Source: an uncultured Candidatus Saccharibacteria bacterium
GTDB taxonomy: Bacteria > Patescibacteriota > Minisyncoccia > Phycocordibacterales > UBA6899
NCBI GenBank assembly: GCA_964469335.1
Contig: CAYXYK010000003.1
Location: 132,674-196,673 of the forward strand
Direction of reading: 5' to 3'
Length of the DNA stretch: 64,000 nucleotides
Position 1 is the first letter of the stretch. Each line of letters starts with the position of its first letter. The translations under genes were made by a program, and so were the position numbers. Below are positions 1 to 34,679 of this stretch, one piece after another. A model generated the notes under the pieces. It was not told where the DNA came from. It did no database searches and worked only from the letters and a program-made list of their open reading frames with translations.

Positions 1-581
1 CGGGTCGAACGACCCCTTGAGGTAAGGCGGCCGAGGAGGGGCCGCACGCTTTGTAGGCATAGCAGCACTCCAAGAAAACATGTGAATGAACGAATTCCAC
101 TGTAGGCAGCCGGGAAGCATCACACTATCAGGTAACTCCAACCGCCGAAACGGAGGAGACATTAACACCCACAGTGAATGCGGGGGATTCGCCTTCGTGG
201 CCAGGTGTTGACACCGACTCGAGCGAAGCGCTGGTCCGAGCTCGCGCAGGGCGCCAGCGGAGGCACCGCAGTCACCGCGGACCACTCTGTCCCGAAGGAC
301 GAGCAGACCGACGCATAGCTTGCGCTATGAGGGAGACAGATTTCTCCCTACCTACCACCATACCTACCGAAGTAGGCTTACTATGATAGGACTTTTCATC
401 GACGAAAAAGGATCGTGACAATATGACGTGCATTCAAGCAGCTTCCCGGCTACCTTTGATCCGTGCTTACCCTAACAAATAGTGCGAAAAAAGGAAACAG
501 CACCACGATCCTCGACTTTTGTGTAGTCCCATAGTAGTTTCAGGTACGGAACAAGGGTCCTTTGATCGAAAGGAAAGTGAC

Positions 582-1106
582 ATGACAGGAATCGAAACGG
601 CAATCAAGCAGATGGGGGTGCCGATGTTCATCGCACAAGCGAAGAACGCATTCTTCGACGCGATGCTGGCGGGGTATGCGAGGAAAGGGGTCAAGGCGCG
701 ACCGATCGCACGACTTCCGGGCTCGCATGTGATCGAGTTCAAGAACGGCCCGTGGAAGGTCGTGGACGTTTACCACACCACGGTCGGCGAGATGAGCTAC
801 GGTACTACCCATCTCTCGTTCGAGGACACGCCGGTCTGGATGATGCAGTACTGGGGTGAATATCCGGAAGAGATGATCGCGACGCTGAAGCGCGCACTCT
901 CGCAGTCATACGTGAACGGCTTCTGGAACGGTGGCCGCGGTCCTGAGTGGTTCAAGGACGATGAGTTCGAATATCACAACGTCGTGGAGCGTGGCAGTTG
1001 CTTCGAAGTGAGCTCCACCGGCAAGGAGACCATCGTGCGGCGCGGAGAAGAACGCAGCGCCGACGGCTGGCACCGATACAACTCGCTCTGGCTGCTTCAG
1101 CTCTAG
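582..1106 (+). CDS. hypothetical protein
   Basis: Long ORF in frame with table ORF 519..1106. ATG at 582 sits 5 nt after AGGAAAG. No domain recognised. Confidence 0.45.
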   Translation: MTGIETAIKQMGVPMFIAQAKNAFFDAMLAGYARKGVKARPIARLPGSHVIEFKNGPWKVVDVYHTTVGEMSYGTTHLSFEDTPVWMMQYWGEYPEEMIATLKRALSQSYVNGFWNGGRGPEWFKDDEFEYHNVVERGSCFEVSSTGKETIVRRGEERSADGWHRYNSLWLLQL

Positions 1107-1189
1107 CGGTCACATCACGTTTTATTGACAGAAGGTCTCGCGACATATCGCGGGCCTTTTCTTTTTCTATGCCATGCTATACTTTTTTC

Positions 1190-1852
1190 ATGAAATTCCT
1201 CCTTACCTCATCCGGGCTCAAGAACGAGCGCCTCGCCAAGGCACTCGAAGAACTCGTCGGGAAACCACTCACCGAGACCTCACTTCTGTTCATTCCGACC
1301 GCAGGGAACACCTCGGTCGACGATCAGAACTGGCTGATCACCAACATCCTCGAGTTCCGCAAACATAACTTCAAGAATATCTCGATCATCGACATCGCAA
1401 TCCCGAAGGAGATGTGGGCACCACACTTCAAGAATGTCGACGTGATCTGCTTCGGCGGGGGCAATGAGAAGTACCTCGCGCGCATCATGGAGGAGCAGGG
1501 ATTCAAGGAGTACATCCTGCCGCACCTCGAGCACAAGGTATATATGGGTATCAGCGCAGGGAGCATGGTCGCCGGACATTTCCTCGAAGGTGGACTCACC
1601 AACGAACTGTTCCCGGAGGAAGATTTTGGGAGTGAGAACGGCAACCCGATGGGCATTCTCGACCTCATCTTCATTCCGCATATGAACTCGCAATTCTTCG
1701 AGAACGTACGGATCGACTTCCTCGAGAGCATCAAAGTGAAATTCAACAAACCGACCTATGCGACCGACGACGAGACCGCACTTTCGATCGATGGAACTTC
1801 CGTCACGATCGTCGGAGGGGGAGCGAGCTGGGTATATAAATCGGGCGAGTGA
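1190..1852 (+). CDS. peptidase S51 family protein (dipeptidase E / cyanophycinase-like)
   Basis: Motifs LLFIPTAG, ICFGGGNE and GISAGSMV are typical of S51 serine peptidases. ATG at 1190 is in frame with table ORF 998..1852. Confidence 0.55.
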   Translation: MKFLLTSSGLKNERLAKALEELVGKPLTETSLLFIPTAGNTSVDDQNWLITNILEFRKHNFKNISIIDIAIPKEMWAPHFKNVDVICFGGGNEKYLARIMEEQGFKEYILPHLEHKVYMGISAGSMVAGHFLEGGLTNELFPEEDFGSENGNPMGILDLIFIPHMNSQFFENVRIDFLESIKVKFNKPTYATDDETALSIDGTSVTIVGGGASWVYKSGE

Positions 1853-1872
1853 TCGGGGTAAACGGGAAAATG

Positions 1873-1900
1873 AAAAACCGCGATGGTGTCGCGGTCTTTT
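1873..1900. terminator. intrinsic terminator hairpin ACCGCGA-tggtg-TCGCGGT flanked by an A-run and a T-run (bidirectional)
   Basis: Perfect 7-bp stem with 5-nt loop between convergent genes. T-run follows on + strand and A-run precedes. Confidence 0.55.
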
Positions 1901-1917
1901 CGAACGGTCGAAGCCGG

Positions 1918-2298
1918 TCAAAGCGGAAGCAGGATGTCCACGCTCGCAGCGTGTAGTGCTTCACGAACCAGGTGTTCGATCTCGGCGGGAGTCTCATCTT
2001 CGCGGAGGATGATGACGTACTCCTCTCGTGCACCGATCCCGATCAGTGCCGAGCGAAGGTTTGCGGCGCGGGTCGCGCGGTCTTCGCCGCGATCGGCACC
2101 GGTCGAAGCGTAGCCACCGATGAGGATCATCACGTCGCGGTTGTTCTGTCTGACGTAGCGCCCGACGAGCTTGTCGCTCATCTGGAACAGGAGTCCTGAA
2201 ACGCCCCAGTACTCCGCGGACTCGGAGAGGAGTGCGAAGCGTTCGTGATTGGCCGGGTTCTCCTCGAGCACGACGATGTCAGTGATGGGGTAGTCCAT
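1918..2298 (-). CDS. hypothetical small protein, paralog A of a tandem pair
   Basis: 126-aa ORF. C-terminus (...VDILLPL) is similar to the downstream paralog (...VDVPLPL). Confidence 0.5.
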   Translation of the reverse strand: MDYPITDIVVLEENPANHERFALLSESAEYWGVSGLLFQMSDKLVGRYVRQNNRDVMILIGGYASTGADRGEDRATRAANLRSALIGIGAREEYVIILREDETPAEIEHLVREALHAASVDILLPL

Positions 2299-2394
2299 TG
2301 CAGTTTCCTTTTGGGTTGTGGGGGAATGAAAGAGCGGGTGTTTCCGCTAGTACTTATAACATTGTTTCTTGTTAAGTCAATCTCCATGAAAAAC

Positions 2395-2420
2395 GAAAAC
2401 CGCGATGGTGTCGCGGTTTC
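2395..2420. terminator. second copy of the hairpin AAAACCGCGATGGTGTCGCGGT
   Basis: Identical 22-nt core to the hairpin at 1873-1895, immediately downstream of paralog B. Confidence 0.5.
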
Positions 2421-2435
2421 GGGCGGGCGGGTCGA

Positions 2436-2810
2436 CTAGAGCGGAAGGGGCACGTCGACTTCGAGTGGGGTGCCGGTGTGGGCACAGATCTTGTGGCGCA
2501 TCAGCGCGGTGACCTCGTCCGGGCTTTCGTCGCCGGAGAGAGTGAGCACCTGGTGCGGCGACATCTTCCATGCGCCGGTGAGGAGTTGTTCGAACTCCCT
2601 GACGGCTTCCGGTCTGCCGGTACATGCGATGACGGCGAATGCCTGTTCGTGCCCGATGCGGCGGATGTCTTCGAGGCCGTCGCTCCGAGATGGGGCAAGC
2701 AGGAATCCGAGCTCGAAGGAGTTCGCGGCCCTGATGACCGAAGCCACCAGAGAGGAGTTCACCGGGCGGGAGTCGAAGTAGATGACGGAGAGCAGTCGGT
2801 AATTGGACAT
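2436..2810 (-). CDS. hypothetical small protein, paralog B of a tandem pair
   Basis: 124-aa ORF with the same length and C-terminal LPL ending as paralog A. Confidence 0.5.
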   Translation of the reverse strand: MSNYRLLSVIYFDSRPVNSSLVASVIRAANSFELGFLLAPSRSDGLEDIRRIGHEQAFAVIACTGRPEAVREFEQLLTGAWKMSPHQVLTLSGDESPDEVTALMRHKICAHTGTPLEVDVPLPL

Positions 2811-2862
2811 GGGTCGACCTTCCTTTCTTGGAGCGAGTTATTCAGAACAGAGACCTGACGAA

Positions 2863-2890
2863 ACTCTACAGTGGTATTTTGGTTCGTCAA
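2863..2890 (-). promoter_or_regulatory. putative sigma70-type promoter for paralog B
   Basis: Read on the minus strand: -35 TTGACG (2885-2890), 16-nt spacer, -10 TAGAGT (2863-2868). Confidence 0.3.
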
Positions 2891-2901
2891 GGTTATGAAA
2901 A

Positions 2902-2925
2902 GCCGCCACGAAGGTTCGTGGCGGC
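2902..2925 (-). terminator. intrinsic terminator for gene 2930..3520
   Basis: Hairpin GCCGCCACGAA-gg-TTCGTGGCGGC followed by a T-run on the minus strand. Confidence 0.5.
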
Positions 2926-2929
2926 GATG

Positions 2930-3520
2930 CTACTTGGTTTTGAAGTAGCGGTCGATACAAAAGGTCGTTCCGTCCGAGGTCGGCGTGAGCGCATAGCCCT
3001 CTTCGTGGCCGATCTCTTCCGAGAGCATCATCGGTGCACCGGGCACCATCGGGCGGAGCCAGAGCCTGTGTCTCCTGCACATCGACTCGAGTTCGTCGAC
3101 GAACGCGGTGACACTCAGGGCGGCGCTGTCGCGCCAGGGAAGTTCCGGCCACAGTACTTCGGCGATCTTGCGCGCCGCACGGATCATGTAGAAGATGCGC
3201 TCTTCCGGTTCTTCGTCGCGGATGAGGTCGAAGTCGCGCACCTCACGGGTCACCGCGGGAAGCGGCAGTCCGAAGGTCTTGCACACCTCCTCGGCCGTGG
3301 TCGCACCGCAGACATCGCGGAGGAGTCCGCCGGGTTCGCGCACGAGTGCATGGCGGATCACGTCGCCTTCCATCAGCCCGATGAGCGGCCAGCCGAGTCC
3401 TTCGTGGAGGGCGCGTGCGAATGCGTAGCACTCGCCGTCGAGATACCGCGCAACAGCGATATGGTGCAGGCATTCCCAGGCCTCCGTGTCTTCTTTGAGT
3501 GGGTGGATCTTTGTCGGCAT
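2930..3520 (-). CDS. hypothetical protein
   Basis: 196-aa ORF, probably co-transcribed with 3537..3809. No domain recognised. Confidence 0.5.
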   Translation of the reverse strand: MPTKIHPLKEDTEAWECLHHIAVARYLDGECYAFARALHEGLGWPLIGLMEGDVIRHALVREPGGLLRDVCGATTAEEVCKTFGLPLPAVTREVRDFDLIRDEEPEERIFYMIRAARKIAEVLWPELPWRDSAALSVTAFVDELESMCRRHRLWLRPMVPGAPMMLSEEIGHEEGYALTPTSDGTTFCIDRYFKTK

Positions 3521-3536
3521 CTTGCCTCCCTGTTGT

Positions 3537-3809
3537 TCAGGTCTCGATCAGTTCGCAGTCGGTCTTCTTGAAGCTCGCGATGCGGCCGAAGTGCTTCTTC
3601 CAGTAATCGGCGGCGCTTTGCCGGTCGGCTTTCGCCATCGCGATCACCACGTCGAGCGGCATCACGTAGTAGCGGCCGTCGTCGGGAACTTTGCCAAGCT
3701 CGCGTCGCACTGCTGCTTCATCGATCGGGACGGTGATCCCGACGAACGCTCTGCGCTTGTCCTCTGGGTGATCGCTTTCGGGGAGTCGGATGATGTGGAT
3801 GTTGTACAT
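3537..3809 (-). CDS. hypothetical small protein
   Basis: 90-aa ORF upstream of 2930..3520 on the same strand. Confidence 0.45.
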   Translation of the reverse strand: MYNIHIIRLPESDHPEDKRRAFVGITVPIDEAAVRRELGKVPDDGRYYVMPLDVVIAMAKADRQSAADYWKKHFGRIASFKKTDCELIET

Positions 3810-3854
3810 CGCAATCCTTTCTTTTGCAGTTGATTAGAACAGTATGCTGCTCGA

Positions 3855-3883
3855 AAACTACCACACATTTATGGTCCGTCAAT
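3855..3883 (-). promoter_or_regulatory. putative sigma70-type promoter for 3537..3809
   Basis: Minus strand: -35 TTGACG (3878-3883), 17-nt spacer, -10 TAGTTT (3855-3860). The flank CCGTCAATCT recurs at 5996 and 8216. Confidence 0.3.
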
Positions 3884-3917
3884 CTGCGGGATGCGGCGGA
3901 GCGTGTAGGATGGGGGA

Positions 3918-4334
3918 ATGAATGTCGAAGTAACTAAGGTTCCGCTCGTCGACTCGCTCGCATCCGGGAATGATTTCCTCGAAGCGGAGCATACCCTCGC
4001 GATGATACCGATACCGTCGAAGATGCTGAAGCACGGCGAGAAGTATTTCCTCGTGCGCGCCGAAGACCACTCGCTCAACCTTGCCGAAGTCGGTGGCACC
4101 AAAGTGAAGATCTTCACCTATGCGCTCGTGCGTCGTACCCGCACCGCAGAGCATGGAGACATAGTAGTGGCATGCCATAAAGGTGCGCTTACGATACGTG
4201 TGTACGAGAACGCGCACGGCATCGAGATCCTCCGTCCACGCTCGAGTGATGAAACGTTCGTCACCACCGTCCTCACCGAGCTGTGCGATGTGAAGGGTGT
4301 GGTCGTTGCCATTCTCCCTTCAAACCTCTATTAA
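3918..4334 (+). CDS. hypothetical protein
   Basis: 138-aa ORF. A -10-like TGTAGGAT box (3904-3911) lies 6 nt before the ATG, suggesting a leaderless mRNA. Confidence 0.5.
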   Translation: MNVEVTKVPLVDSLASGNDFLEAEHTLAMIPIPSKMLKHGEKYFLVRAEDHSLNLAEVGGTKVKIFTYALVRRTRTAEHGDIVVACHKGALTIRVYENAHGIEILRPRSSDETFVTTVLTELCDVKGVVVAILPSNLY

Positions 4335-4512
4335 GGACCTTTGTGCATGGCGAACTCCTTTGTTATAAGACGAAACACTTATGCCTCTGCCTCCTTACAG
4401 GAGCTGTACACCTTTTGGATTTCTCAGAAGAAATCTCATAAGGTCTTGAGGAATGGGTCCCAGCCCATTCCCTCACTCCGTGCCTCGGATTTCACTCATT
4501 TACAAAGGTCCT
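4333..4512. repeat. MITE-like element with 11-bp terminal inverted repeats AGGACCTTTGT ... ACAAAGGTCCT
   Basis: Inverted repeats at 4334-4344 and 4502-4512 flank 155 bp that contain two internal hairpins (GATTTCT/AGAAATC and GAATGGG/CCCATTC). Lies between a stop codon and the next promoter. Confidence 0.4.
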
Positions 4513-4570
4513 GCAGATAATAAACAAAAACCTTCGCGACGAGTGCTACGTGTTTCGCTATAATTAACTT

Positions 4571-5335
4571 ATGAAAAATTCTTTTGCAAAGGTCATTCCG
4601 ATGTTGGTAGCATTCTTTGCGGTAGTTGTGCTTGGAGTGTACGTCTATCTCTCGCAGCATCCAGAGCTCACTAATCCTCCGGTCATTATTTCGACAATGC
4701 CGCCCAGCGAAGAACCGGTCGCAAATGATCCGTCGACTTCGACTCCTCCCGTTACAGTGCGACCACCGACACCGCCGACACAGACGCCGTTCCTTCCGTA
4801 TGGCGATGTCACGCTCAAGCTCGGGCAGCTTGCGGTGTTCAAAGATATCACTGTGCGCGCAGTTGAAGTTGTAGAAGACAGTCGCTGCCCGAAGGACGTG
4901 CAGTGTATTCAAGCGGGGACCGTGCGCCTCAAGGTTGATATTGCTGCAGCTCTGGGGACTGCTCCGAGCATTATCACGCTCGGCAGAGTCTTTACCACCG
5001 AAGGAGAAGCAATCACGCTCTCGGCAGTGACGCCCGAAAAGAATTCGAAGGTCACGATTGGGAATTCCGATTATCGCTTCACTCTCCATGTCGTCAAACA
5101 GTCTGTTGTGGTGACTCCAACTCCCGATCAGAAAGGGAAGTGCTATGTCGGTGGCTGCTCAGCGCAACTGTGTACCGACCAGCCTGATATGGTATCGAAC
5201 TGTATGTATACCGCCGCCTATGCCTGCTACAAAACTGCTTCTTGTGAGCGCCAGCCAAGCGGCCAATGCGGATGGACTCCATCGAAAGAACTCTCCGCCT
5301 GCCTCCTCGAAGCTGACGGAAAGGCAACGATGTAA
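4571..5335 (+). CDS. membrane-anchored secreted protein with Pro/Thr-rich linker and Cys-rich C-terminal domain
   Basis: N-terminal hydrophobic segment followed by a PT-rich stretch and 9 Cys in the last 60 aa. TATAAT (4559-4564) lies 6 nt before the ATG. Confidence 0.55.
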   Translation: MKNSFAKVIPMLVAFFAVVVLGVYVYLSQHPELTNPPVIISTMPPSEEPVANDPSTSTPPVTVRPPTPPTQTPFLPYGDVTLKLGQLAVFKDITVRAVEVVEDSRCPKDVQCIQAGTVRLKVDIAAALGTAPSIITLGRVFTTEGEAITLSAVTPEKNSKVTIGNSDYRFTLHVVKQSVVVTPTPDQKGKCYVGGCSAQLCTDQPDMVSNCMYTAAYACYKTASCERQPSGQCGWTPSKELSACLLEADGKATM

Positions 5336-5413
5336 ATCTGTTTTTTGCAGCAACTCTTCGCCCCAAACTCTGCATCCAAAACTGCCAACGACAAGTTCGC
5401 TAGGGAAAAGAGC

Positions 5414-5436
5414 AACCCGCCGTTGTGGGGCGGGTT
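5414..5436 (-). terminator. intrinsic terminator for 5443..5919
   Basis: Hairpin AACCCGCC-gttgtgg-GGCGGGTT with a T-rich tract on the minus strand. Confidence 0.45.
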
Positions 5437-5442
5437 GTGAAA

Positions 5443-5919
5443 TCATGCAAGACGTTCGAGGAATCCCTGAACGATGCGATCGTATGCAGGACGGAACGGA
5501 GCGAAGAACGGGTCGTCGGGCGTCGAAGTGACAAAGATGCCGAAACCGAACTCATCGGCGGGTCGCTCATGATGAACGCTGATCTTCACCTCTGTGACGG
5601 TCGCCAGAGGCGAGATGGCGTGCAGTTTGACCTGCGTCAGGAACTTCTCTGCCATGCCTCCGCGCGTTTCCCACTTGCCGAGCTTGGGCCCGCGCAGGAA
5701 ACGTGCGATGCGTCCCTGTTCACGGAAGTAGACAGGGGTTGCGATCACGCCTTGATCGGGGACGTACGTGTCGCCTTCGTGCGCTGTCCCTCGCGCGGTG
5801 TTGTAGCTTTGTGCCTGCCACTTGGTGCTGTAGTCGACACTGAACGTGGCAGAATTGCGGAATGCGTCGAGGATCTCGCGCCCGAGAAATGGGCGGGGGA
5901 GTCGGATGATGACGGCCAT
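5443..5919 (-). CDS. hypothetical protein
   Basis: Table ORF 5443..5961. Internal Met (MAVIIRL) at 5919 is the preferred start. Confidence 0.4.
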   Translation of the reverse strand: MAVIIRLPRPFLGREILDAFRNSATFSVDYSTKWQAQSYNTARGTAHEGDTYVPDQGVIATPVYFREQGRIARFLRGPKLGKWETRGGMAEKFLTQVKLHAISPLATVTEVKISVHHERPADEFGFGIFVTSTPDDPFFAPFRPAYDRIVQGFLERLA

Positions 5920-5974
5920 GGAAAGATCTCCTATTGTTGTTGTATGCATGTGTGGGTGCATACTCCCGATTTCA

Positions 5975-6002
5975 TAATAACACTAAAATATAGACCCGTC
6001 AA
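5975..6002 (-). promoter_or_regulatory. putative sigma70-type promoter for 5443..5919
   Basis: Minus strand: -35 TTGACG (5997-6002), 16-nt spacer, -10 TATTTT (5975-5980). Confidence 0.3.
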
Positions 6003-6032
6003 TCTCAACGAGTCCAATTCTGAGGTGAATTA

Positions 6033-6061
6033 TTGACGAAAGCGGTAGAATATGATATAAA
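6033..6061 (+). promoter_or_regulatory. sigma70-type promoter TTGACG-N17-TATAAA for 6088..6363
   Basis: Near-consensus boxes. AGGAGG lies 2 nt before the ATG at 6088. Confidence 0.4.
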
Positions 6062-6087
6062 ACTATCAGTCTACACCACAGGAGGCC

Positions 6088-6363
6088 ATGATGGCACGTC
6101 AGACGATCGAAACCCGCGCCCTCGAACGGTACTACCAGTTCCTGCGGCGCCTCGAGGCGGAAGACCTCGCGAACGACGACCTCGACGCTCCGTGCGATCG
6201 GGCCGAGCGGCGCACGCGCGCGCTGAAGCACTCGAACCAGCTCAGGCTCGCCTGGCACGTGCGCGACCGACACGGACGCGACGCACTCGAGGAGTTCTCG
6301 TTCTGGATGGAAGCGATGGCCGGAATGGCGGTCATGCTCGAAGTCTCGCTCATGGCAGCGTGA
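6088..6363 (+). CDS. hypothetical small Arg-rich protein
   Basis: 91-aa ORF with its own promoter, SD and strong terminator. Confidence 0.45.
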   Translation: MMARQTIETRALERYYQFLRRLEAEDLANDDLDAPCDRAERRTRALKHSNQLRLAWHVRDRHGRDALEEFSFWMEAMAGMAVMLEVSLMAA

Positions 6364-6367
6364 CAAC

Positions 6368-6403
6368 GGGGTAGGTCAGACGACCTACCCCGATTCTTTT
6401 TTT
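6368..6403 (+). terminator. intrinsic terminator
   Basis: Hairpin GGGGTAGGTC-agac-GACCTACCCC followed by T8. Confidence 0.6.
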
Positions 6404-6465
6404 ATATCGCCAACCCAAACACGAACCCACCCCAATAACCCCAACCCAACCGCCTTCGCAACTTC
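6404..6465. repeat. C/A-rich low-complexity tract with AACCC/CCCAA-type repeats
   Basis: Sequence caacccaaacacgaacccaccccaataaccccaacccaacc lies between terminator and promoter. Confidence 0.3.
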
Positions 6466-6503
6466 GATTCGGGGGTGTAGGATTGGGTGAAATAATACTG
6501 TAT

Positions 6504-7016
6504 ATGAAATTCATCCAGATCAACGGGCCATCGTGTGTGGGAAAAAGCACCATCGTGAAGCATATCCTCGATGAGAAGCCGCATTACTACAAAGTCTCGT
6601 ATGATGCGCTCAAGTGGGGGTTCTCTCAGTACAAAGCGGACGAACACTTTGACGATGTGCGTGCATTGGTCCGCGGTCTCGCCGAAGCAGTTTGCAAGAT
6701 CGAGTACAATATCGTCTGTGACTCCGGCATGCATCTCGCGACTCGCGAACAACTATTCGAAATCGCACGACGCTACAACTACGAGATCATCGAAATAAAC
6801 CTCGAAGCGGAGTATGATGTACTTCGCCAACGCTTTGAGGCGCGAATGGAGAGCGCAGCGGCAGATCCCGCGAGAAAGATCTCGAACAAGAATCCTGAGC
6901 GCCACCGCGAACTCTTCGATATCTATCAGGCTGAGAAGAATCCGAATGCGATCACACTGCGCACCGACCTTCTGAGCGAAGACGAGATCGCCAAACAAGT
7001 CCTCGCCCTCGCATAA
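6504..7016 (+). CDS. P-loop NTPase / small-molecule kinase-like protein (AAA_33 / zeta-toxin-like fold)
   Basis: Walker A motif INGPSCVGKST near the N-terminus. ATG at 6504 is preferred over TTG at 6483. Confidence 0.5.
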   Translation: MKFIQINGPSCVGKSTIVKHILDEKPHYYKVSYDALKWGFSQYKADEHFDDVRALVRGLAEAVCKIEYNIVCDSGMHLATREQLFEIARRYNYEIIEINLEAEYDVLRQRFEARMESAAADPARKISNKNPERHRELFDIYQAEKNPNAITLRTDLLSEDEIAKQVLALA

Positions 7017-7021
7017 AAGAA

Positions 7022-7043
7022 CTGCCCCGCGGGTGCGGGGCAG
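7022..7043. terminator. hairpin CTGCCCCGC-gggt-GCGGGGCAG (family copy 1)
   Basis: Functions as a terminator for minus-strand gene 7057..7335 (a T-rich tract follows on the minus strand). A near-identical copy lies at 7727-7748. Confidence 0.5.
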
Positions 7044-7056
7044 TGGGGGGGGCGGG

Positions 7057-7335
7057 TCAGGAGAACAAGCTGGTGAACCAGTTCCGGAAGGAGAACGCAA
7101 AGCGCTCTTCCGCGATGCGGGGCCGGAATTCACTCTCGGCGCGAGCAACGATGTCGGCAACGTCTTCCATCAGCGCGTTGCGGTCGGCTTCGCTCATGGC
7201 CGAGATGACGGCTTCGAAGCGCGGATCACGGGCGAGTTTCCCGTACAGCGTGAACGATGCCGATTCAGCGGCGGTCTGCGGCTGGAACTTGGCTTCGCCG
7301 CAGCTGCGCATGAGGTAGCGGTTGAACAGATTCAT
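7057..7335 (-). CDS. hypothetical small protein
   Basis: 92-aa ORF. Confidence 0.4.
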   Translation of the reverse strand: MNLFNRYLMRSCGEAKFQPQTAAESASFTLYGKLARDPRFEAVISAMSEADRNALMEDVADIVARAESEFRPRIAEERFAFSFRNWFTSLFS

Positions 7336-7354
7336 CGAACTCTCCTTCGGTAGG

Positions 7355-7588
7355 TCAGCGGTGGATCTTGGCAGGCACGAGCTTCTTGGCGCGGCTGCGT
7401 GCGCGGCAGATCATCTCGGTCGAGAGCGAGAGCGCGCCGGGCAGGATCGCGAGCGACAGGAATGGCGCAGCGGCGGCCGAGTTCGCCGTGACGAAGTAGT
7501 AGCCGGCGATGAGGCCGAGCACAGCGAAGCAGGCGAAGAAGATGACCGAGATGCGATTGAAGCCGTAGATCGTCGGGTAGTGGTCCAT
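7355..7588 (-). CDS. small membrane protein (2 predicted TM helices)
   Basis: 77-aa hydrophobic ORF directly upstream of 7057..7335. Confidence 0.4.
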   Translation of the reverse strand: MDHYPTIYGFNRISVIFFACFAVLGLIAGYYFVTANSAAAAPFLSLAILPGALSLSTEMICRARSRAKKLVPAKIHR

Positions 7589-7726
7589 GGAGTCTCCTTG
7601 GAAAGAGCATTCATTGGCGACATGCCGATGAGTCAGCTCGGTTGATGACGTATGAATAATAACACTTTATTATCCATACGTCAATTGTCTCACTTCGCTC
7701 ATGTCCCAACCTTATATATAAAAGAA

Positions 7727-7748
7727 CTGCCCCGCGGATGCGGGGCAG
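7727..7748. terminator. hairpin CTGCCCCGC-ggat-GCGGGGCAG (family copy 2)
   Basis: About 35 nt (ataaaagaactgccccgcgg.tgcggggcag) match the copy at 7014-7048. Overlaps the end of 7762..8148. Confidence 0.5.
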
Positions 7749-7761
7749 GGGGTGAATGTGG

Positions 7762-8148
7762 TCAGTGCCAGTAGAGAATGATGGTGGTCTGTGGCGGAAG
7801 TGCATCGAGGTACGCTTTGACGGCGCGGTGCTGCGGGTCGTCGTCGACCTTGAAGCGTTCGCCTTGGAGCTGCAGTGCGGTCACGAACGTGAGCGGCTCA
7901 CCGAATGTGCCGTCGACCTTGGTGTCTCTGCCGCCTTCTTCGTGGTCGACCCACAGACGGACACGGTCCGGCAGGAGCCAGGTGTCGACAGTAGGTGCCG
8001 GACAATCCTCGAAACGGCGCAACTGCGAAAAGATGCTGTAGGTGCCGGAGCTCCAGCCGAGGATGGTGCGCGGAACGATGCGGCCGCTCGTCTTGACGAG
8101 GCTTCTCATTCCTTCATCGATCGGGATCATGTTGAGGTCGATGGTCAT
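7762..8148 (-). CDS. hypothetical protein
   Basis: 128-aa ORF. Start, stop and frame were verified. Confidence 0.45.
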   Translation of the reverse strand: MTIDLNMIPIDEGMRSLVKTSGRIVPRTILGWSSGTYSIFSQLRRFEDCPAPTVDTWLLPDRVRLWVDHEEGGRDTKVDGTFGEPLTFVTALQLQGERFKVDDDPQHRAVKAYLDALPPQTTIILYWH

Positions 8149-8193
8149 TGGCTGCCTTTCAAAAGAGGTGAGAGGTCGAAACTTCTGCCCAAA

Positions 8194-8222
8194 ACTCTAC
8201 ATTTCAAACCCCCACCCGTCAA
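8194..8222 (-). promoter_or_regulatory. putative sigma70-type promoter for 7762..8148
   Basis: Minus strand: -35 TTGACG (8217-8222), 17-nt spacer, -10 TAGAGT (8194-8199). Confidence 0.3.
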
Positions 8223-8261
8223 CCTCCGCTTCTTCCATTCCGCGGTGTAGGATGATGAATC

Positions 8262-8960
8262 ATGGAGCATGAAATTGAAATCGAATTTATATATCGCAAA
8301 AGAAAATTATTAAATTTTTGGAAGGGAGATTTAATTCAAACTAAGCCTTTTGAAATTGGTTTCTTACTTAGAAATCGTGGGAATACTCCGCTGTTGGGCG
8401 CAACATTAAGTGGAATAAGATGGTCATCAGCAGCAGGTCAGCAAATGTTTTCTAGTATCGATAAAAGTTTTCATATTGACAGCCTGAACCCTGGAGAAGA
8501 AAGAAAGATATGGATAGAGAAAGCTGGAACATATGTCTACGGTCTCTGCCACATTGATCTCAACATTAGCTCTGACACGGTTGGACAGACAATTAAAACT
8601 TACCAAGTAAACCCATTTACAAAAGAAGTTACATTTTTTGGCACAAATGTTTGGTCAGATTTCTTTTTTATTCGGAACATAAATGAATATCAACAAGGCA
8701 TAACAAATTCATTTCTGTTTTATTTTTCAGTTATTACTGTCGTGCTTTCTATTCAGACTTGGAAACTAACTCAACTGCAAACGTACTACTCTGAAGTTCA
8801 AAGCAGAGCTGAGCGCATCCACCAGGCTCAAGCAGAAAGTAATGCAATCGAGTTATGCAAGCAAAATCCTGATCTAAATGACTCTGGGCTGAGCAATCTA
8901 CAAAGTGGTGCTTCAGTTTCATGTGCACAGGTGCGAGAAGTATATAAAGATAGATTCTGA
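8262..8960 (+). CDS. hypothetical protein encoded by a strongly AT-rich gene (compositional island)
   Basis: 232-aa ORF. The first 60 nt are about 23% GC against roughly 58% in the flanks. TGTAGGAT -10 box lies 8 nt before the ATG. One hydrophobic segment. Confidence 0.5.
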   Translation: MEHEIEIEFIYRKRKLLNFWKGDLIQTKPFEIGFLLRNRGNTPLLGATLSGIRWSSAAGQQMFSSIDKSFHIDSLNPGEERKIWIEKAGTYVYGLCHIDLNISSDTVGQTIKTYQVNPFTKEVTFFGTNVWSDFFFIRNINEYQQGITNSFLFYFSVITVVLSIQTWKLTQLQTYYSEVQSRAERIHQAQAESNAIELCKQNPDLNDSGLSNLQSGASVSCAQVREVYKDRF

Positions 8961-9112
8961 AATTTTTTAGTATACGTCAGCCTCGCGGGATTTGAGATGA
9001 GATGCGAGGAGCGGGCGAGTACGCGCCCGAGGCGTACGTGCTGGTACGGTGAGGGCGGGGCGGAGCCCGCGACAATGCAGGTCGCTCAAATCACGTGAGG
9101 TGTGAACAGGCG

Positions 9113-12100
9113 TTATTCTAACGCCTTCACTTTCTCCGCGATAACAGAGGGCGAATCATTCCGTCTCGAAAACTTCCCCTTAATCGCCACCATCTTATCC
9201 ACCACCAAAAACTCCTTCACCTCGGTGAAGGTGCGCGGGAACACCACAACTTCGATCGAGCCGGTGAAATCGGCCACCCGAAGGAACGCCATATGCTCGT
9301 TCTTTTTGGTGATCACCAGTTTGTGTTCTTCGATGATGCCGGCAAGGATCGTTGCCATGCCGTCACGGGTCTCTTCGTTCAGTTTCTTTATCGAACTACC
9401 ACTCTTCTCGATCTTCTCGCGGTGCTTCTCCAAGGGGTGCCCGGAAATATAGAGGCCGAGGAGTTCCTTCTCCCAGGCGAGCTTCGATTCTTGTGAGATC
9501 TCAGGAGCAGGGCGCATGCGTAGCGTCGGCATCGCGTGGGTGGTGCTCATCACGGAGAACAGCGACTCCTGATTGGAGGCTTTCTCGCGCGCATGTGCCT
9601 TGTGATACTCGAGTGCATCGTCGACATTGTGGAGGAGCACTCCGCGCTCTTCGCCCAAAGTATCGAAGCAGCCGGCGCGAATGAGCGACTCGAGTGACTT
9701 CTTGTTGAGGTCCTTGTGAGTGACACGCTCGAGGAATTCGGTGTAGCTCTTGTACGGACCATTCATATCTCGTTCCGCAATAATGGCATCACTTATCGCC
9801 TCACCCAAATTTTTAATTGTGTGTAGTCCAAAACGAATCTCATCTTTATTTACTGCTACGTCAGATTTGGATGAAGAGTGAGGCGCGGAGGAGGCGTCTT
9901 CGGGAGCTGTACGGGATGGTACTGCGACCGATGCGCCGACGCTTAGAGCGCAGCTATTCGCCAAATCTGGCTTAGCTTTGATGACGGTGAAGTCGGCTTG
10001 TGACTGATTGATGTCCGGAGGAAGCACATTAATCTTCATCCGCTTACACTCGGCGATCATCACCGCGATGGTGTCAGTGTCGCCACTTTCAGCCGTGAGG
10101 ACGGCGGTCATGTATTCGGCGGGGAAGTTGGCCTTCATGTATGCGGTCTGATAGGCGACGCGCCCATAGCAGGCGGCGTGCGCTTTGTTGAAACCGTACC
10201 CTTGGAACGGCTCGAAGAGTGCCCAAATAGCTTCAGCTTCTTCTTTCTTCATGCCGCTATGCGACTGACAGCCGTCGACGAAGATGACATGCTGCTTTGC
10301 CATTTCGGCGGGAATCTTCTTGCCGACCGCTTTGCGGAACTTGTCGACACCTTCCCAGTTGTATCCTGCGAGTTCGAGTGCGGTATAGAGGAGGTCGTCC
10401 TGATAGACGAGCACGCCGTAGCTCTTCGCGAGGAACGACTCTGCCTTGGGGTGGAAGTATTCGATCTTGCTGCGACCCTGCTTGCGCGCAATGTACTCGG
10501 GGATGTTGTTCATCGGACCCGGGCGATAGAGTGCGACCATCGCGTTGATGTCGTGGATGGTGGTCGGCTTGAGGTCGATCAAGTGTTTGGTCATGCCGGT
10601 ACCGTTCAATTGGAAGAGTCCTTCGGTCGCGCCGACGGCGAGCATCGCGAAGGTCTTCTTGTCGTCGAACGGAATCTTCTCGATCTCGATATCGATATTG
10701 CGATGCTCTTTCACCAGGCGTACCGCGTCACCGAGGATCGCGAGGTTTCGGATACCGAGGAAGTCGAGCTTGGTGAGGCCGACACCGTCTTCACCGACGG
10801 TGTACATGTCGTACTGGGTGATGAGCTTGCCACCCTTGGGGTCGAACTGGGTCGGCACGTATTCGATGAGGGGTTTCGGTGCGATCACCACACCCGCGGC
10901 ATGCACCGAGACATGGCGGACACATCCTTCGAGCTTCTTGGCGAGGTCGAGGATCTCGCGCGCCTCGGGGTCGGTGCCGTACATCTTCTTGAGGTCGGGT
11001 TCGAGGTCGAGCGCATGCTCGATGGTCATCGGGAATCCTTGCGAACCCATCGGGATGAGTTTCGAGATCTTGTCGCCGACGTCGTAGGGTTTGCCGAGCG
11101 CACGTGCGACGTCGCGCACCGAGCCGCGCGCCATCATGGTTCCGAAGGTACCGATCTGTGCGACCTTGTCTGCGCCGTACTTTCTTTTCGCGTACTCGAT
11201 CACTTCTTCGCGGCGGTTATCGGCGAAGTCCATATCGATATCGGGAGCGGACGGGCGGAACGGATTGAGGAAGCGCTCGAACGGCAGCTGGAATTCGATC
11301 GGGTCGACGTTGGTGATCCCCGAGAGGTACGCGACGTGCGAACCTGCCGCCGAACCACGCACGGTGGTGTAGATGCCGGCTTCGCGGGCAAAGCGCAAGA
11401 GGTCAGCGACCACGAGGAAGTACGGCGCGTAGTTCTTGTTCTTGATCACCTCGAGTTCGTACTTGCGGCGCTCCTCGGAGACCGTGTCGTTCGAGAGGCC
11501 GCGCTCCTTGGCGCCCTTCTGAGTGAGTTCGTCCAGCATCTGGTCCGCGGTCTTGCCGGGTTCGAGCGCGAAGTCAGGGAAGATGAATTTGCCGAGCGTG
11601 AGTTCGACGTTGCACTCTGCGGCGATCTTCGCGGTGTTGTATACCGCGTCAGGAGTCTTGGGGAAGAGGGCGAGCGCCTCTTTGGTCGAGATGAAGCTCG
11701 CGTCGAATTCGAACTTCATACCGTCGTCGACTCCGCCCACGCCGCCGGTCTGGATGCCAAGGAGGGTCTCGTGTGCTTTCTTGTCTTCCTTGTGGAGGTA
11801 GTGCGAGTCGTGGGTCGCGACGAGGGGAATATCGAGTTCGCGCGCGAGTGCGACCAGTGCGTCTTCGACCTCGTCATGTCCCTCGATCTCGGGCTTGTGC
11901 ATGATCTCGATGTAGTAGTTCTCCTTGCCGAAGATCTCCTGATACTCGAGTGCGATCGCGACCGCGCGGTCGTGGTCGCGACTACGCAGCGCTCGCGACA
12001 GCTCTCCGCCGAAACAGCCCGAGAGTGCGATCACGCCTTCCGAATACATCCGTAGCAAGTCTTTGTCGACGCGCGGTTTGTAGTAGTAGCCCTCGAGGTG

Positions 12101-12439
12101 CGCTTTGGTCACCAGCGAGATGAGGTTCTGGTAGCCTTTATTGTTCTTCGCGAGGAGGGTGAGGTGGTAGATCTTGTTGTCGATACCCGGCTCTTTGTCG
12201 TGGCGGGTGCGGAAGGCGACATAGGTCTCGACCCCGAGAATGGGCTTCACTCCGGCCTTCACCGCGGTCTGATAGAAGTCGATCGCGCCGTACATCGCGC
12301 CGTGGTCGGTGAGTGCGACCGCGGGCATATTGTGCTCCTTCGCGAGCGCGATCATCTTGTCGACTTTCGAGAGTCCGTCGAGGAGGGAATAGTGCGAGTG
12401 GGTGTGCAGGTGTACGAAGTGGACGGGTTCCTTTTCCAT
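9113..12439 (-). CDS. dnaE: DNA polymerase III alpha subunit
   Basis: PHP-domain N-terminus (HLHTHSHYSLLDG) and polymerase core motifs. Met at 12439 (MEKEPVHFVHLHTHS) is the likely start. Confidence 0.9.
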   Translation of the reverse strand: MEKEPVHFVHLHTHSHYSLLDGLSKVDKMIALAKEHNMPAVALTDHGAMYGAIDFYQTAVKAGVKPILGVETYVAFRTRHDKEPGIDNKIYHLTLLAKNNKGYQNLISLVTKAHLEGYYYKPRVDKDLLRMYSEGVIALSGCFGGELSRALRSRDHDRAVAIALEYQEIFGKENYYIEIMHKPEIEGHDEVEDALVALARELDIPLVATHDSHYLHKEDKKAHETLLGIQTGGVGGVDDGMKFEFDASFISTKEALALFPKTPDAVYNTAKIAAECNVELTLGKFIFPDFALEPGKTADQMLDELTQKGAKERGLSNDTVSEERRKYELEVIKNKNYAPYFLVVADLLRFAREAGIYTTVRGSAAGSHVAYLSGITNVDPIEFQLPFERFLNPFRPSAPDIDMDFADNRREEVIEYAKRKYGADKVAQIGTFGTMMARGSVRDVARALGKPYDVGDKISKLIPMGSQGFPMTIEHALDLEPDLKKMYGTDPEAREILDLAKKLEGCVRHVSVHAAGVVIAPKPLIEYVPTQFDPKGGKLITQYDMYTVGEDGVGLTKLDFLGIRNLAILGDAVRLVKEHRNIDIEIEKIPFDDKKTFAMLAVGATEGLFQLNGTGMTKHLIDLKPTTIHDINAMVALYRPGPMNNIPEYIARKQGRSKIEYFHPKAESFLAKSYGVLVYQDDLLYTALELAGYNWEGVDKFRKAVGKKIPAEMAKQHVIFVDGCQSHSGMKKEEAEAIWALFEPFQGYGFNKAHAACYGRVAYQTAYMKANFPAEYMTAVLTAESGDTDTIAVMIAECKRMKINVLPPDINQSQADFTVIKAKPDLANSCALSVGASVAVPSRTAPEDASSAPHSSSKSDVAVNKDEIRFGLHTIKNLGEAISDAIIAERDMNGPYKSYTEFLERVTHKDLNKKSLESLIRAGCFDTLGEERGVLLHNVDDALEYHKAHAREKASNQESLFSVMSTTHAMPTLRMRPAPEISQESKLAWEKELLGLYISGHPLEKHREKIEKSGSSIKKLNEETRDGMATILAGIIEEHKLVITKKNEHMAFLRVADFTGSIEVVVFPRTFTEVKEFLVVDKMVAIKGKFSRRNDSPSVIAEKVKALE

Positions 12440-12445
12440 GCGCCA

Positions 12446-12451
12446 ATTATA
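12446..12451 (-). promoter_or_regulatory. -10 box TATAAT 6 nt upstream of the dnaE ATG (leaderless)
   Basis: Minus strand reads gctATAATtggcgcATG. Confidence 0.3.
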
Positions 12452-12463
12452 GCCTAGATAGAT

Positions 12464-12472
12464 TATCCACAC
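12464..12472. promoter_or_regulatory. perfect DnaA-box 9-mer TTATCCACA upstream of the dnaE promoter
   Basis: Exact consensus match. A 6-2-6 palindrome ATTGTGccCACAAT (12495-12508) lies nearby. Confidence 0.3.
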
Positions 12473-12529
12473 GTATTGCCGAGGGGTGGTATCTATTGTG
12501 CCCACAATCTCGCATCATAGATACAAAAA

Positions 12530-31855: not shown

Positions 31856-31960
31856 TTTTGGCGCCCTCCTCGTCCTTCCTTCGGCGAACTTCGTCACCGT
31901 ACACCGCGTACGGCTCCGAAGTATCACCTCAGTCCAGGACTTCGGATTGCATCCAAAATT
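31854..31960 (+). repeat. MITE-like intergenic element, family copy R5
   Basis: Terminal inverted repeats AATTTTGG/CCAAAATT. Central hairpin CCGTAC-accgc-GTACGG (31897-31913) covaries with the R2 hairpin. Confidence 0.5.
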
Positions 31961-34677: not shown

Positions 34678-34679
34678 CG

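What the first reader, a model, noticed from the sequence alone, without database searches (positions are those of the whole stretch)
8262..8960. Strongly AT-rich ORF embedded in GC-rich chromosome: probable recent horizontal acquisition
The 699-nt gene is about 30-35% GC (the first 60 nt about 23%) while the flanks are about 58% GC. Its codon usage is A/T-ending, unlike every other gene in the window. The 232-aa product has one hydrophobic segment and no recognisable domain. Upstream it has the local leaderless -10 signal TGTAGGAT, so it is probably expressed. Downstream (8961-9112) lies a GC-rich structured spacer with GTACGC/GCGTAC and CCTCGC/GCGAGG hairpins before the convergent dnaE.
Basis: seen in the sequence. 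Interest (0 to 1): 0.55.

Follow-up and report, generated by a model that had tools for sequence, protein, structure and literature searches.

The report
Foreign AT-rich membrane-protein gene in CPR bacterium
A single 232-codon gene with far lower GC content than its surroundings sits beside dnaE in a GC-rich candidate-phyla-radiation bacterium; it is almost certainly a recent import from the low-GC Patescibacteria and phage gene pool, and it encodes an uncharacterised single-pass membrane protein, which makes it a clean but ordinary case of gene transfer.

Summary
ORF 8262-8960 (+) is 36.6% GC with GC3 of 0.30, in a 54.7% GC window whose 51 other long ORFs average GC3 of 0.65 (z = -4.5). It is the lowest-GC 699-nt stretch in the 64 kb. 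The composition switches within about 15 nt of the start and stop codons.

The host is a Paceibacterota (CPR) bacterium. None of the 80 dnaE loci fetched from relatives carries the gene. Close homologues are very rare: 5 by word search, and 232 cluster representatives by exhaustive HMMER.

Homologues that sit in 31-38% GC contigs match their surroundings. A 56%-identical copy lies between the terminase and recombinase genes of a phage-like contig. A 51%-identical copy in a 58% GC Kaiserbacteria contig is again a one-gene AT-rich island with unrelated flanks. A simple tree suggests that copy was acquired separately.

A high-confidence model (pLDDT 96.6) shows an N-terminal CARDB-like beta-sandwich, one continuous 62-residue helix that includes the membrane span, and a small C-terminal module with two invariant cysteines. 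No annotated family matches. The function is unknown. My guess of a moron-like envelope or exclusion factor is inference only.

Verdict: horizontal acquisition is supported. This is a new member of a known kind and of modest interest.

The parts
8245..8253 (+). GTGTAGGAT motif, 8 nt upstream of the ATG. It may be a -10-like promoter element (TAGGAT) or an AGGA ribosome-binding site. Its composition is host-like.
   Evidence: The 9-mer occurs 4 times in the window against 0.26 expected. Three copies lie just upstream of + strand start codons. Other genes in the window show TAnnnT 6-8 nt before the ATG, at 21419, 48000 and 52003. Function not tested.
8262..8960 (+). AT-rich ORF of 232 aa plus stop codon, the horizontally acquired gene. 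It encodes a bitopic membrane protein of an unannotated family.
   Evidence: GC 36.6% and GC3 0.30. All homologues start with MEHxIEIEF. There are 232 family representatives. The AF2 model has pLDDT 96.6.
8262..8678 (+). Codons 1-139: N-terminal beta-sandwich domain of Ig/CARDB type. There is no signal peptide, so it is inferred to be cytoplasmic.
   Evidence: AF2 predicts strands E2-13 through E130-138. Foldseek's best matches are beta-sandwiches: transglutaminase barrels, the PF1109 CARDB domain and TRAP subunits, at E about 1e-4. Invariant residues include Q26, F30, N38, P77, G89, T90, T113, F119, N129 and W131.
8679..8864 (+). Codons 140-201: one continuous 62-residue helix. It contains the membrane span (about residues 146-170) and a roughly 30-residue extension.
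   Evidence: AF2 helix H140-201. Hydrophobic window at residues 146-164.
8856..8957 (+). Codons 199-232: C-terminal small module carrying the two invariant cysteines (C199 at 8856-8858, C221 at 8922-8924). It is inferred to lie outside the cytoplasm and to be disulfide-stapled.
   Evidence: C199 and C221 are invariant in 16 full-length members. Together with the TM segment (profile positions about 140-231), this module also occurs fused to unrelated N-termini.
8974..9112 (.). GC-rich (65%) long imperfect hairpin between the convergent AT-rich ORF and dnaE. It is host-like in composition. Its role is unknown; it may be a terminator or insulator.
   Evidence: MFE -76 kcal/mol with z = -5.1 on the + strand and z = -3.8 on the - strand. 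Arms at 8981-8996 and 9085-9100. It is unique in the window and absent from the fetched loci. No Rfam match. Not conserved after dnaE in relatives.
9113..12505 (-). dnaE (DNA polymerase III alpha), convergent with the AT-rich ORF. It is a host core gene, used as the anchor for taxonomy and synteny.
   Evidence: 89% identical to the dnaE of a Candidatus Paceibacterota MAG, and 53-75% identical to 79 other Patescibacteria loci. GC3 is 0.76. The 1108-aa version starting at 12439 is the form on record.
7762..8148 (-). Divergent upstream neighbour, a 128-aa ORF of host-like composition. It marks the left edge of the insertion.
   Evidence: GC3 0.78. No family hit. No homologue next to any other family member.

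Best explanation
**What it is.** The window comes from a GC-rich Paceibacterota (CPR/Patescibacteria) bacterium. ORF 8262-8960 is an ORF-sized piece of foreign DNA of about 720 bp (roughly 8254-8975). It was recently inserted between a host gene and the 3' end of dnaE, in a variable, non-syntenic stretch of the chromosome.

**Where it came from.** The source is the low-GC Patescibacteria and phage gene pool. The family is compositionally at home in 31-38% GC contigs. One member sits in a moron-like position in a phage-like contig, so phages are a plausible vehicle. The route into this particular genome is not shown.

**How it is set up.** The gene is intact. It lies directly behind a host-type motif (GTGTAGGAT) that also precedes two other local genes, so it is probably transcribed from a resident promoter (inferred).

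**The product.**
- An N-terminal beta-sandwich of about 140 aa, CARDB/Ig-like, with no signal peptide and therefore inferred to be cytoplasmic.
- One long helix that crosses the membrane once.
- A tail of about 30 aa with two invariant cysteines, inferred to be extracytoplasmic and disulfide-bonded.
- No catalytic motif or known domain.

**Most likely role (inference only).** I think it is a dispensable accessory envelope protein of the kind that temperate phages carry as morons, for example a superinfection-exclusion or surface-modulating factor that acts alone.

**Shown versus inferred.** Shown: the composition, the family, the fold prediction, the genomic contexts and the absence from relatives. 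Inferred: the topology, the disulfide, expression and function.
For: **Composition.**
- GC 36.6% against a 54.7% window. GC3 is 0.30 against 0.65 ± 0.09 (z = -4.5). It has the lowest CAI-like score in the window.
- The boundaries are sharp and coincide with the ORF ends.

**Host identity and absence from relatives.**
- dnaE is 89% identical to that of a Paceibacterota MAG.
- No homologue occurs in the 80 related loci.
- No close homologue occurs in the GTDB representative genomes.

**Family rarity and origin.**
- 5 close homologues among 5.8 billion proteins, and 232 representatives at E <= 0.001 among 1.84 billion.
- The family's amino-acid composition is of the low-GC type.
- The only source-named members are from Kaiserbacteria and the Patescibacteria group.
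- L092 (36% GC) shares 56-61% identical proteins with Paceibacterota loci.

**Genomic contexts.**
- Native-like composition in L003 (31% GC), L092 (36%) and L086 (38%).
- AT-rich relative to the flanks in L001, L004 and L088.
- L001 is phage-like. It carries TerL (E = 6e-69), TerS, a ParB-methyltransferase, a serine recombinase and a tyrosine integrase. The homologue lies in a small opposite-strand cluster between the terminase and recombinase genes.
- The L004/L005 copy is frameshifted, which fits a dispensable gene.

**Independent acquisitions.**
- P0001 groups with P0002, which sits in a 38% GC context.
- The Kaiserbacteria copy P0155 groups with the phage-contig copy and the 31% GC copy.
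- The flanks of the window copy and the Kaiserbacteria copy are unrelated.

**Structure.** pLDDT 96.6. The only structural matches are beta-sandwiches.

**Literature.** Single-gene transfers are frequent in Patescibacteria and occur mostly between Patescibacteria (PMC12455944).
Against: - No mobility gene, repeat or target-site duplication flanks the gene in the window, so the insertion mechanism is unknown.
- The whole 9 kb downstream of dnaE is non-syntenic with relatives. 'Absent at the orthologous site' therefore could not be shown strictly.
- The genome-wide scans used only two N-terminal peptide patterns, so they would miss divergent homologues.
- All four copies found in mid- or high-GC contexts are still AT-rich, and none is ameliorated. 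This could also mean the AT-richness is maintained by selection.
- The window's copy is known from a single contig, and its junctions could not be checked against reads.
- The functional guess rests on one phage-like context and on the domain architecture. The positive-inside rule does not settle the topology: 1.9 versus 1.6 K+R residues in the two flanks.
Confidence: 0.72

Rival explanations
1. The gene is a long-resident or repeatedly retained gene whose AT-richness is kept by selection. Possible reasons include low or conditional expression through rare codons, a silencing or regulatory role of AT-rich DNA, or a property of the DNA or RNA itself. On this view the composition would not indicate recent arrival.
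For: All four copies in mid- or high-GC contexts stay at 34-40% GC, although they are only 50-64% identical to one another. These are the window, L088 (58% GC), L001 (about 48%) and L004 (about 47%). No ameliorated close homologue was seen.
Against: Distant family members with GC-type amino-acid composition do exist: P0141, P0064 and P0126 have ratios of 0.63-0.71, so the fold tolerates GC-rich coding. The gene is absent from all sampled relatives of the window genome. The two high-GC copies are not sisters, and their flanks are unrelated. One copy is a pseudogene, which fits rapid gain and loss better than long retention.
Confidence: 0.1
2. It is an assembly or binning artefact, with a low-GC fragment from another organism spliced into a GC-rich MAG contig.
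For: The source is evidently a metagenome-assembled CPR genome, and this exact protein is on record from one contig only. Reads could not be inspected.
Against: An artefact would need two chimeric junctions about 720 bp apart that happen to frame an intact ORF exactly, behind a local motif and in front of a hairpin. The analogous Kaiserbacteria island has identical junctions in four assemblies held by NCBI, ENA, JGI and Logan, and one of them differs at 10 of 3600 bases. The 260-kb contig is host-like on both sides.
Confidence: 0.04
3. It is a mobile gene cassette of integron type or an unknown CPR equivalent: a promoterless ORF followed by a structured recombination site (the 8974-9112 hairpin), captured behind a resident promoter.
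For: The insert is ORF-sized. It is followed immediately by a hairpin of about 140 nt with z = -5.1. It sits directly behind a motif shared with two other local gene starts.
Against: The hairpin is GC-rich like the host, not AT-rich like the insert. It is unique in the window and absent beside every other family member. Neither RYYYAAC nor GTTRRRY core sites are visible at its ends (read). No integrase or recombinase was found among the ORFs of 1-9112.
Confidence: 0.04
4. It is the last remnant of a decayed prophage, a moron left behind after the phage genes were deleted, rather than an ORF-only insertion.
For: The homologue P0003 lies in a phage-like contig between the terminase and recombinase genes. 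ORF 7057-7335 has faint hits to a small terminase subunit, Pfam E = 0.051 and PHROG E = 0.0067. A UmuD/S24-like gene and a polynucleotide-kinase-like gene lie nearby.
Against: All neighbouring ORFs have host-like GC3 of 0.56-0.91. None gives a significant phage hit. No att repeats or integrase are present.
Confidence: 0.1

Closest known systems
Phage 'morons' and lysogenic-conversion genes, such as the HK97 gp15 type of membrane-protein superinfection-exclusion factor (from my own knowledge of the literature, not tested here)
   Same: It is a single, self-contained gene whose GC differs from its surroundings. It encodes a small membrane protein and is sporadically distributed. One family member (P0003) lies between the terminase and recombinase genes of a phage-like contig, on the opposite strand and AT-richer than the rest of the contig.
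   Different: In the window the gene is not inside a recognisable prophage. There is no sequence or fold similarity to any characterised exclusion protein. The exclusion function is pure inference.
Compositionally atypical single-gene transfers and genomic islands in Patescibacteria (PMC12455944)
   Same: The host is a CPR bacterium. The donor pool appears to be other Patescibacteria. The gene is detectable because GC and codon usage have not ameliorated. The paper reports hundreds of islands and individually transferred genes, mostly exchanged between Patescibacteria.
   Different: This insert is exactly ORF-sized, with host-like promoter and terminator regions. The same family forms a second, apparently independent one-gene island in another GC-rich CPR lineage.
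CARDB (PF07705) and related Ig-like beta-sandwich domains, such as the PF1109 CARDB domain (3idu, 2kl6) and the transglutaminase beta-barrels
   Same: The predicted N-terminal domain superposes on these folds, with Foldseek E about 1e-4 to 2e-3 and TM-score up to 0.55-0.58 normalised to the target. One of 149 family members has a weak CARDB hit at E = 0.0016.
   Different: The query has no Pfam hit. Sequence identity is 9-18%. CARDB domains are normally secreted, whereas this domain has no signal peptide and precedes the membrane span.
Beta-sandwich-plus-single-TM architectures, such as the TRAP beta and delta subunits of the eukaryotic translocon (8b5l, 8btk)
   Same: The overall architecture is shared: a beta-sandwich followed by one transmembrane helix, aligned over about 185 columns.
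   Different: TM-scores are only 0.3-0.46 with rmsd of 9-12 Å. TRAP domains are lumenal and have signal peptides. There is no evolutionary link, so this is an analogy of shape only.

Membership tests
Horizontally acquired gene (compositional island) | Base composition and codon usage significantly different from the host genome | tested here: met
   GC 36.6% against 54.7%. GC3 z = -4.5. Lowest CAI-like score in the window. Lowest-GC 699-nt stretch in the 64 kb.
Horizontally acquired gene (compositional island) | Patchy distribution: absent from close relatives and present in distant lineages | tested here: met
   Absent from the 80 related dnaE loci and, for close homologues, from the GTDB representative genomes. 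Present in a Kaiserbacteria contig, a phage-like contig and low-GC contigs. Caveat: the scans were pattern-limited and the flank is non-syntenic.
Horizontally acquired gene (compositional island) | Gene phylogeny incongruent with the organism phylogeny | tested here: inconclusive
   In an NJ tree of 10 members, the window copy groups with a copy from a 38% GC contig, and the Kaiserbacteria copy groups with the phage-contig copy and the 31% GC copy. There is no bootstrap support, and most contigs have no taxonomy.
Horizontally acquired gene (compositional island) | Adjacent mobility functions (integrase, transposase, tRNA or att sites, direct repeats) | tested here: not met
   None found in window 1-9112 or around the ORF. 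This feature is met only for the homologue in L001.
Phage moron | Located within a prophage or phage genome, between conserved phage genes | tested here: not met
   The window neighbours are host-like and give no significant phage hits. The feature is met for homologue P0003 in L001.
Phage moron | An autonomous unit with its own promoter and terminator, and GC different from the flanks | tested here: inconclusive
   GC differs. However, the putative promoter motif and the downstream hairpin have host-like composition. No consensus sigma-70-type promoter or intrinsic terminator was found for the + strand gene.
Integron gene cassette | An attC site with inverted core sites (RYYYAAC ... GTTRRRY) downstream of the ORF, repeated along an array | tested here: not met
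   The hairpin is unique in the window and no core sites are seen at its ends.
Integron gene cassette | An IntI integrase with attI nearby | tested here: not met
   No recombinase domain was found in the ORFs of 1-9112. The rest of the window was not scanned protein by protein.
CARDB domain (PF07705) | Match to the Pfam HMM above the gathering threshold | tested here: not met
   The query has no Pfam hit even at E <= 1. One of 149 relatives hits at E = 0.0016.
CARDB domain (PF07705) | Seven-stranded Ig-like beta-sandwich fold | tested here: met
   The AF2 model has pLDDT 96.6. Foldseek matches the PF1109 CARDB domain at E about 7e-4 to 2e-3, with TM-score 0.50-0.58 normalised to the target.
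Superinfection-exclusion or abortive-infection membrane proteins | Blocks phage DNA entry or aborts infection when expressed | not testable with these tools
   No PADLOC or PHROG functional hit. The host is uncultured.

The most novel reading that the evidence does not exclude
The family may be a specialised, self-sufficient ORF-sized module that repeatedly invades GC-rich CPR genomes and is kept AT-rich. The reason could be that copies turn over too fast to ameliorate, or that AT-richness is itself selected, for example for silencing or conditional expression, or as a recombination substrate. Its two-module protein would be a previously unrecognised CPR or phage envelope system, possibly governing phage exclusion or episymbiont-host contact. 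The protein combines a cytoplasmic CARDB-like sandwich with a TM segment and cysteine-stapled ectodomain that also occurs on other N-termini.
Probability: 0.1. Interest if true: 0.6.

Novelty: new member of a known kind. Interest (0 to 1): 0.3.

Why it matters
This is a very clean, gene-precise example of recent gene transfer into a streamlined CPR genome. It links a low-GC Patescibacteria and phage gene pool to GC-rich CPR lineages.

It also defines an unannotated protein family that appears to be Patescibacteria-associated. The family has about 232 cluster representatives, and its structure can be predicted with high confidence.

If the protein proves to be an exclusion or surface factor, it would add to the very small set of known accessory envelope functions in CPR bacteria. 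As it stands, it illustrates a well-known process and is not a new one.

Tried and rejected
**Annotation searches of the product.**
- Pfam, PHROGs, PADLOC, NCBIfam and PDB sequence searches gave nothing.
- A Pfam scan of 149 relatives gave nothing consistent.

**First structure model.** The model built from 5 sequences was poor (pLDDT 62.6) and its fold matches were not used. It was replaced by the 149-sequence model.

**Fold searches.** The PDB and BFVD searches with the good model returned only generic beta-sandwiches.

**Searches for further copies.**
- Pattern scans of GTDB genomes and IMG/VR, and tblastn of phage and plasmid records, found no copies.
- The JGI metagenome scan re-found only a known contig.

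**Synteny.** Comparison with the closest relative L006 failed downstream of dnaE, because that flank shares nothing with the window. An empty-site test was therefore impossible.

**The spacer hairpin.** It has no Rfam match, no second copy and no attC-like features. The integron idea was rejected.

**Flanking repeats.** No direct repeats or target-site duplication flank the ORF. The 12-nt inverted repeat at 8268-8279 and 8912-8923 lies inside conserved coding sequence and was judged a chance match.

**Topology.** The positive-inside rule did not resolve it.

**Taxonomy of homologue contigs.** The cluster look-up for organism names returned no names.

Full report
**1. Observation**

The ORF at 8262-8960 (+) is real and intact: 699 nt, 232 codons plus a TGA stop.

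The first 60 nt are 23.3% GC. GC at codon positions 1, 2 and 3 is 0.44, 0.36 and 0.30.

For comparison, the window is 54.7% GC, the left kilobase 58.0% and the right kilobase 54.2%.

Of all 699-nt windows in the 64 kb, this one has the lowest GC (z = -4.2). I compared it with 51 other non-overlapping ORFs of at least 120 aa. Against those, its GC3 has z = -4.5 and its CAI-like score is the lowest in the window (z = -2.7).

Every neighbouring ORF in 1-12505 has GC3 of 0.56-0.91. The composition flips within about 10-20 nt of the start and stop codons. The upstream intergenic region 8149-8261 is 50% GC, and the spacer 8961-9112 is 60.5%.

The only other clearly low-GC gene is a 906-aa histidine kinase at 44772-47492 (44% GC, GC3 0.48).

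**2. Flanking signals**

TGTAGGAT lies at 8246-8253, 8 nt before the ATG.
- The 9-mer GTGTAGGAT occurs four times in the window against 0.26 expected. None of 100 shuffles reaches four.
- Three copies lie 6-20 nt upstream of + strand start codons, at 3918, 6504 and 8262. All three are in the variable region next to dnaE.
- The fourth copy lies inside a 23S-rRNA-like fragment.
- Several other genes in the window have a TAnnnT 6-8 nt before their ATG and no Shine-Dalgarno sequence, while others have clear GGAGG sites. The genome therefore seems to use both modes.
- For this gene, TAGGAT plus 8 nt fits a leaderless start, and AGGA plus 9 nt fits a ribosome-binding site. Neither reading can be proven here.

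The downstream spacer folds into one long imperfect hairpin.
- Energy is -76 kcal/mol with z = -5.1 on the + strand, and z = -3.8 on the - strand.
- It is GC-rich like the host and unique in the window and in all fetched loci.
- It has no Rfam match.
- It is not conserved after dnaE in relatives.
- I read it as a host-side terminator or insulator between convergent genes, with low confidence.

**3. Host and relatives**

dnaE (9113-12505, -) is 89% identical to the dnaE of a Candidatus Paceibacterota MAG. It is 53-75% identical to 79 other Patescibacteria loci, including Lloydbacteria, Yanofskybacteria and Nomurabacteria. The window is therefore a GC-rich CPR bacterium.

Synteny with the nearest relatives holds on the upstream side of dnaE and stops exactly at its stop codon.

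Window 1-9112 shares almost nothing with any of the 80 loci. It consists of small genes of host-like composition, including an S51 peptidase, a UmuD/S24-like protein and an AAA_33 kinase.

None of the 80 loci encodes a homologue of the AT-rich gene. A pattern scan of 185,579 species-representative genomes found no close homologue. That scan used only two N-terminal peptide patterns, so divergent homologues would escape it.

**4. The family**

Word-indexed search of 5.8 billion proteins found only four close homologues, 55-64% identical, besides the query itself.

Exhaustive HMMER over 1.84 billion representatives found 232 proteins at E <= 0.001. These show that the protein has two modules.
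- Positions 1-170 are a beta-rich domain plus a hydrophobic helix. This part occurs alone in many proteins of 170-215 aa.
- Positions about 140-231 are the TM segment, a helix and two cysteines. This part occurs fused to unrelated N-termini.

C199 and C221 are invariant in 16 full-length members.

No member has a meaningful Pfam domain. The only members named by a source are from Candidatus Kaiserbacteria and the 'Patescibacteria group'.

The family's amino-acid composition is of the low-GC type. The median GARP/(GARP+FYMINK) ratio is 0.32 and the query's is 0.35, against about 0.5 for the window's other proteins. A few distant members are of the GC type, at 0.63-0.71.

**5. Genomic contexts of homologues**

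| Locus | Contig GC | Gene GC | Notes |
|---|---|---|---|
| L003 | 31% | 32% | Composition native to the contig |
| L092 | 36% | 32% | Native; encodes proteins 56-61% identical to proteins of Paceibacterota loci |
| L086 | 38% | 36% | Native |
| L001 | about 48% | 37% | Phage-like contig |
| L004/L005 | about 47% | 34% | Frameshifted copy, identical in two samples |
| L088 | 58% | 39.5% | Candidatus Kaiserbacteria; one-gene AT-rich island |

L001 is phage-like. It carries a large terminase (E = 6e-69), a small terminase, a ParB-methyltransferase, a large serine recombinase and a tyrosine integrase. The homologue lies in a three-gene, opposite-strand cluster between the terminase and recombinase genes, which is a moron-like position.

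In L088 the gene has GC3 of 0.38 while its neighbours have 0.56-0.83. Its flanks are unrelated to those of the window. The junctions are identical in four public assemblies.

In a simple NJ tree, the window's protein groups with the copy from the 38% GC contig. The Kaiserbacteria copy groups with the phage-contig copy and the 31% GC copy. This suggests two separate acquisitions, but the tree has no bootstrap support.

No gene neighbour is conserved among the contexts, so the gene appears to act alone.

**6. Structure**

With 149 aligned relatives, AlphaFold2 gives pLDDT 96.6 and pTM 0.76.
- Residues 2-138 form a beta-sandwich.
- Residues 140-201 form a single 62-residue helix that includes the membrane span at about 146-170.
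- After a short hairpin comes a final helix at 221-227.

Foldseek finds only generic Ig-like sandwiches: transglutaminase barrels, the PF1109 CARDB domain, macroglobulin domains and TRAP subunits. E-values are about 1e-4 to 1e-3 and identity is 9-18%. Matches in the viral library are uncharacterised proteins.

The domain has no signal peptide, because the first strand starts at residue 2. I therefore infer an N-in, C-out topology with a disulfide between C199 and C221. The positive-inside rule is not decisive.

**7. Interpretation**

The evidence best supports recent horizontal acquisition of an ORF-sized segment from the low-GC Patescibacteria and phage gene pool. The segment landed in a variable region next to dnaE, behind a resident promoter-like motif.

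This agrees with published evidence that single-gene transfers are common in Patescibacteria and occur mostly within the phylum (PMC12455944).

How the DNA was inserted is unknown. There are no repeats, no recombinase and no att site.

Function is unknown. The architecture, the stand-alone distribution, the pseudogenised copy and the phage context make an accessory envelope role the most likely guess. A moron-like superinfection-exclusion or surface factor is my best single idea, at roughly 25-30%.

**8. Rival explanations**

- *AT-richness maintained by selection in a resident gene, about 0.1.* This is supported only by the absence of ameliorated close homologues.
- *Remnant of a decayed prophage, about 0.1.*
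- *Assembly chimera, about 0.04.*
- *Integron-like cassette, about 0.04.* The hairpin is host-like and unique, and it lacks attC features.

**9. Verdict**

This is a textbook-clean example of a known process, involving an unannotated family.

Two points are mildly interesting. The same family forms a one-gene AT-rich island in two apparently independent GC-rich CPR lineages. It also has a confidently predicted two-module membrane architecture.

Interest is 0.3. Novelty: new member of a known kind.

Noticed in passing
window 31860-34840 (hit at 32221-32308, +): About 3 kb between an SMC-like gene and an RNase R-like gene has no convincing ORF. The ORFs there have GC3 of 0.41-0.55 and R/S/P-rich translations. 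The region contains the window's only Rfam hit, an isolated 88-nt match to the L1-stalk region of bacterial 23S rRNA (61 bits). A sensitive Rfam search of the region found nothing else, and the 88-nt hit was not listed again in that search. It could be a large unknown ncRNA or an rRNA remnant.
   Followed up: partly
window 3903-3911, 6475-6483, 8245-8253, 32230-32238: GTGTAGGAT occurs 4 times against 0.26 expected. Three copies sit 6-20 nt upstream of + strand starts: a UmuD/S24-like gene, an AAA_33 kinase and the AT-rich ORF. This may be a shared promoter or operator for accessory genes of the dnaE-proximal variable region.
   Followed up: partly
window 44772-47492 (+): A 906-aa sensor histidine kinase is the second low-GC gene of the window (about 44% GC, GC3 0.48). 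It may be an older or partly ameliorated acquisition.
   Followed up: no
window 49374-49468 (+): tRNA-Arg(TCG) is called at 95 nt, unusually long for a bacterial tRNA. It may contain an insertion or intron, or the call may be loose.
   Followed up: no
window 4406-4448 (+) and L025 6207-6249: A 43-nt hairpin-forming element (GTACACCTTTTGGATTTCTCAGAAGAAATCTCATAAGGTCTTG) is 84% identical to a sequence just downstream of dnaE in a Lloydbacteria MAG, with changes that look compatible with the stem. It has no Rfam hit at the gathering threshold. It could be a small conserved RNA or a terminator.
   Followed up: partly
window 7646-7683: A near-perfect 17-nt-arm palindrome (TGACGTATGAATAATAA / TTATTATCCATACGTCA) lies in an AT-rich intergenic region and overlaps two promoter-like sites on opposite strands. 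It is probably an operator.
   Followed up: no
L004 4713-5343 and L005 129-759: The homologue in these two contigs, from different samples, carries the same frameshift after codon about 141 (FFFIRSK). The C-terminal half continues in another frame. It is a pseudogene or a recoding site.
   Followed up: partly
L001 about 4180-4290 and about 5040-5100: In the phage-like contig, the family member and the next small gene are each preceded by a similar element of about 40 nt (GTGAYACACCC..CATTCCTGTGTSACTTTT followed by TGATAT-type -10 boxes). This may be a repeated promoter or operator for the moron-like cluster.
   Followed up: no
window 1-9112: The whole flank downstream of dnaE has host-like composition but is non-syntenic with all 80 related loci. 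It is a mosaic of small genes, most with no family hit. The annotated ones include an S51 peptidase, DUF5680, two paralogous ORFs of about 125 aa, a UmuD-like protein, an eight-cysteine-domain protein and an AAA_33 kinase. This looks like a hypervariable accessory region.
   Followed up: partly
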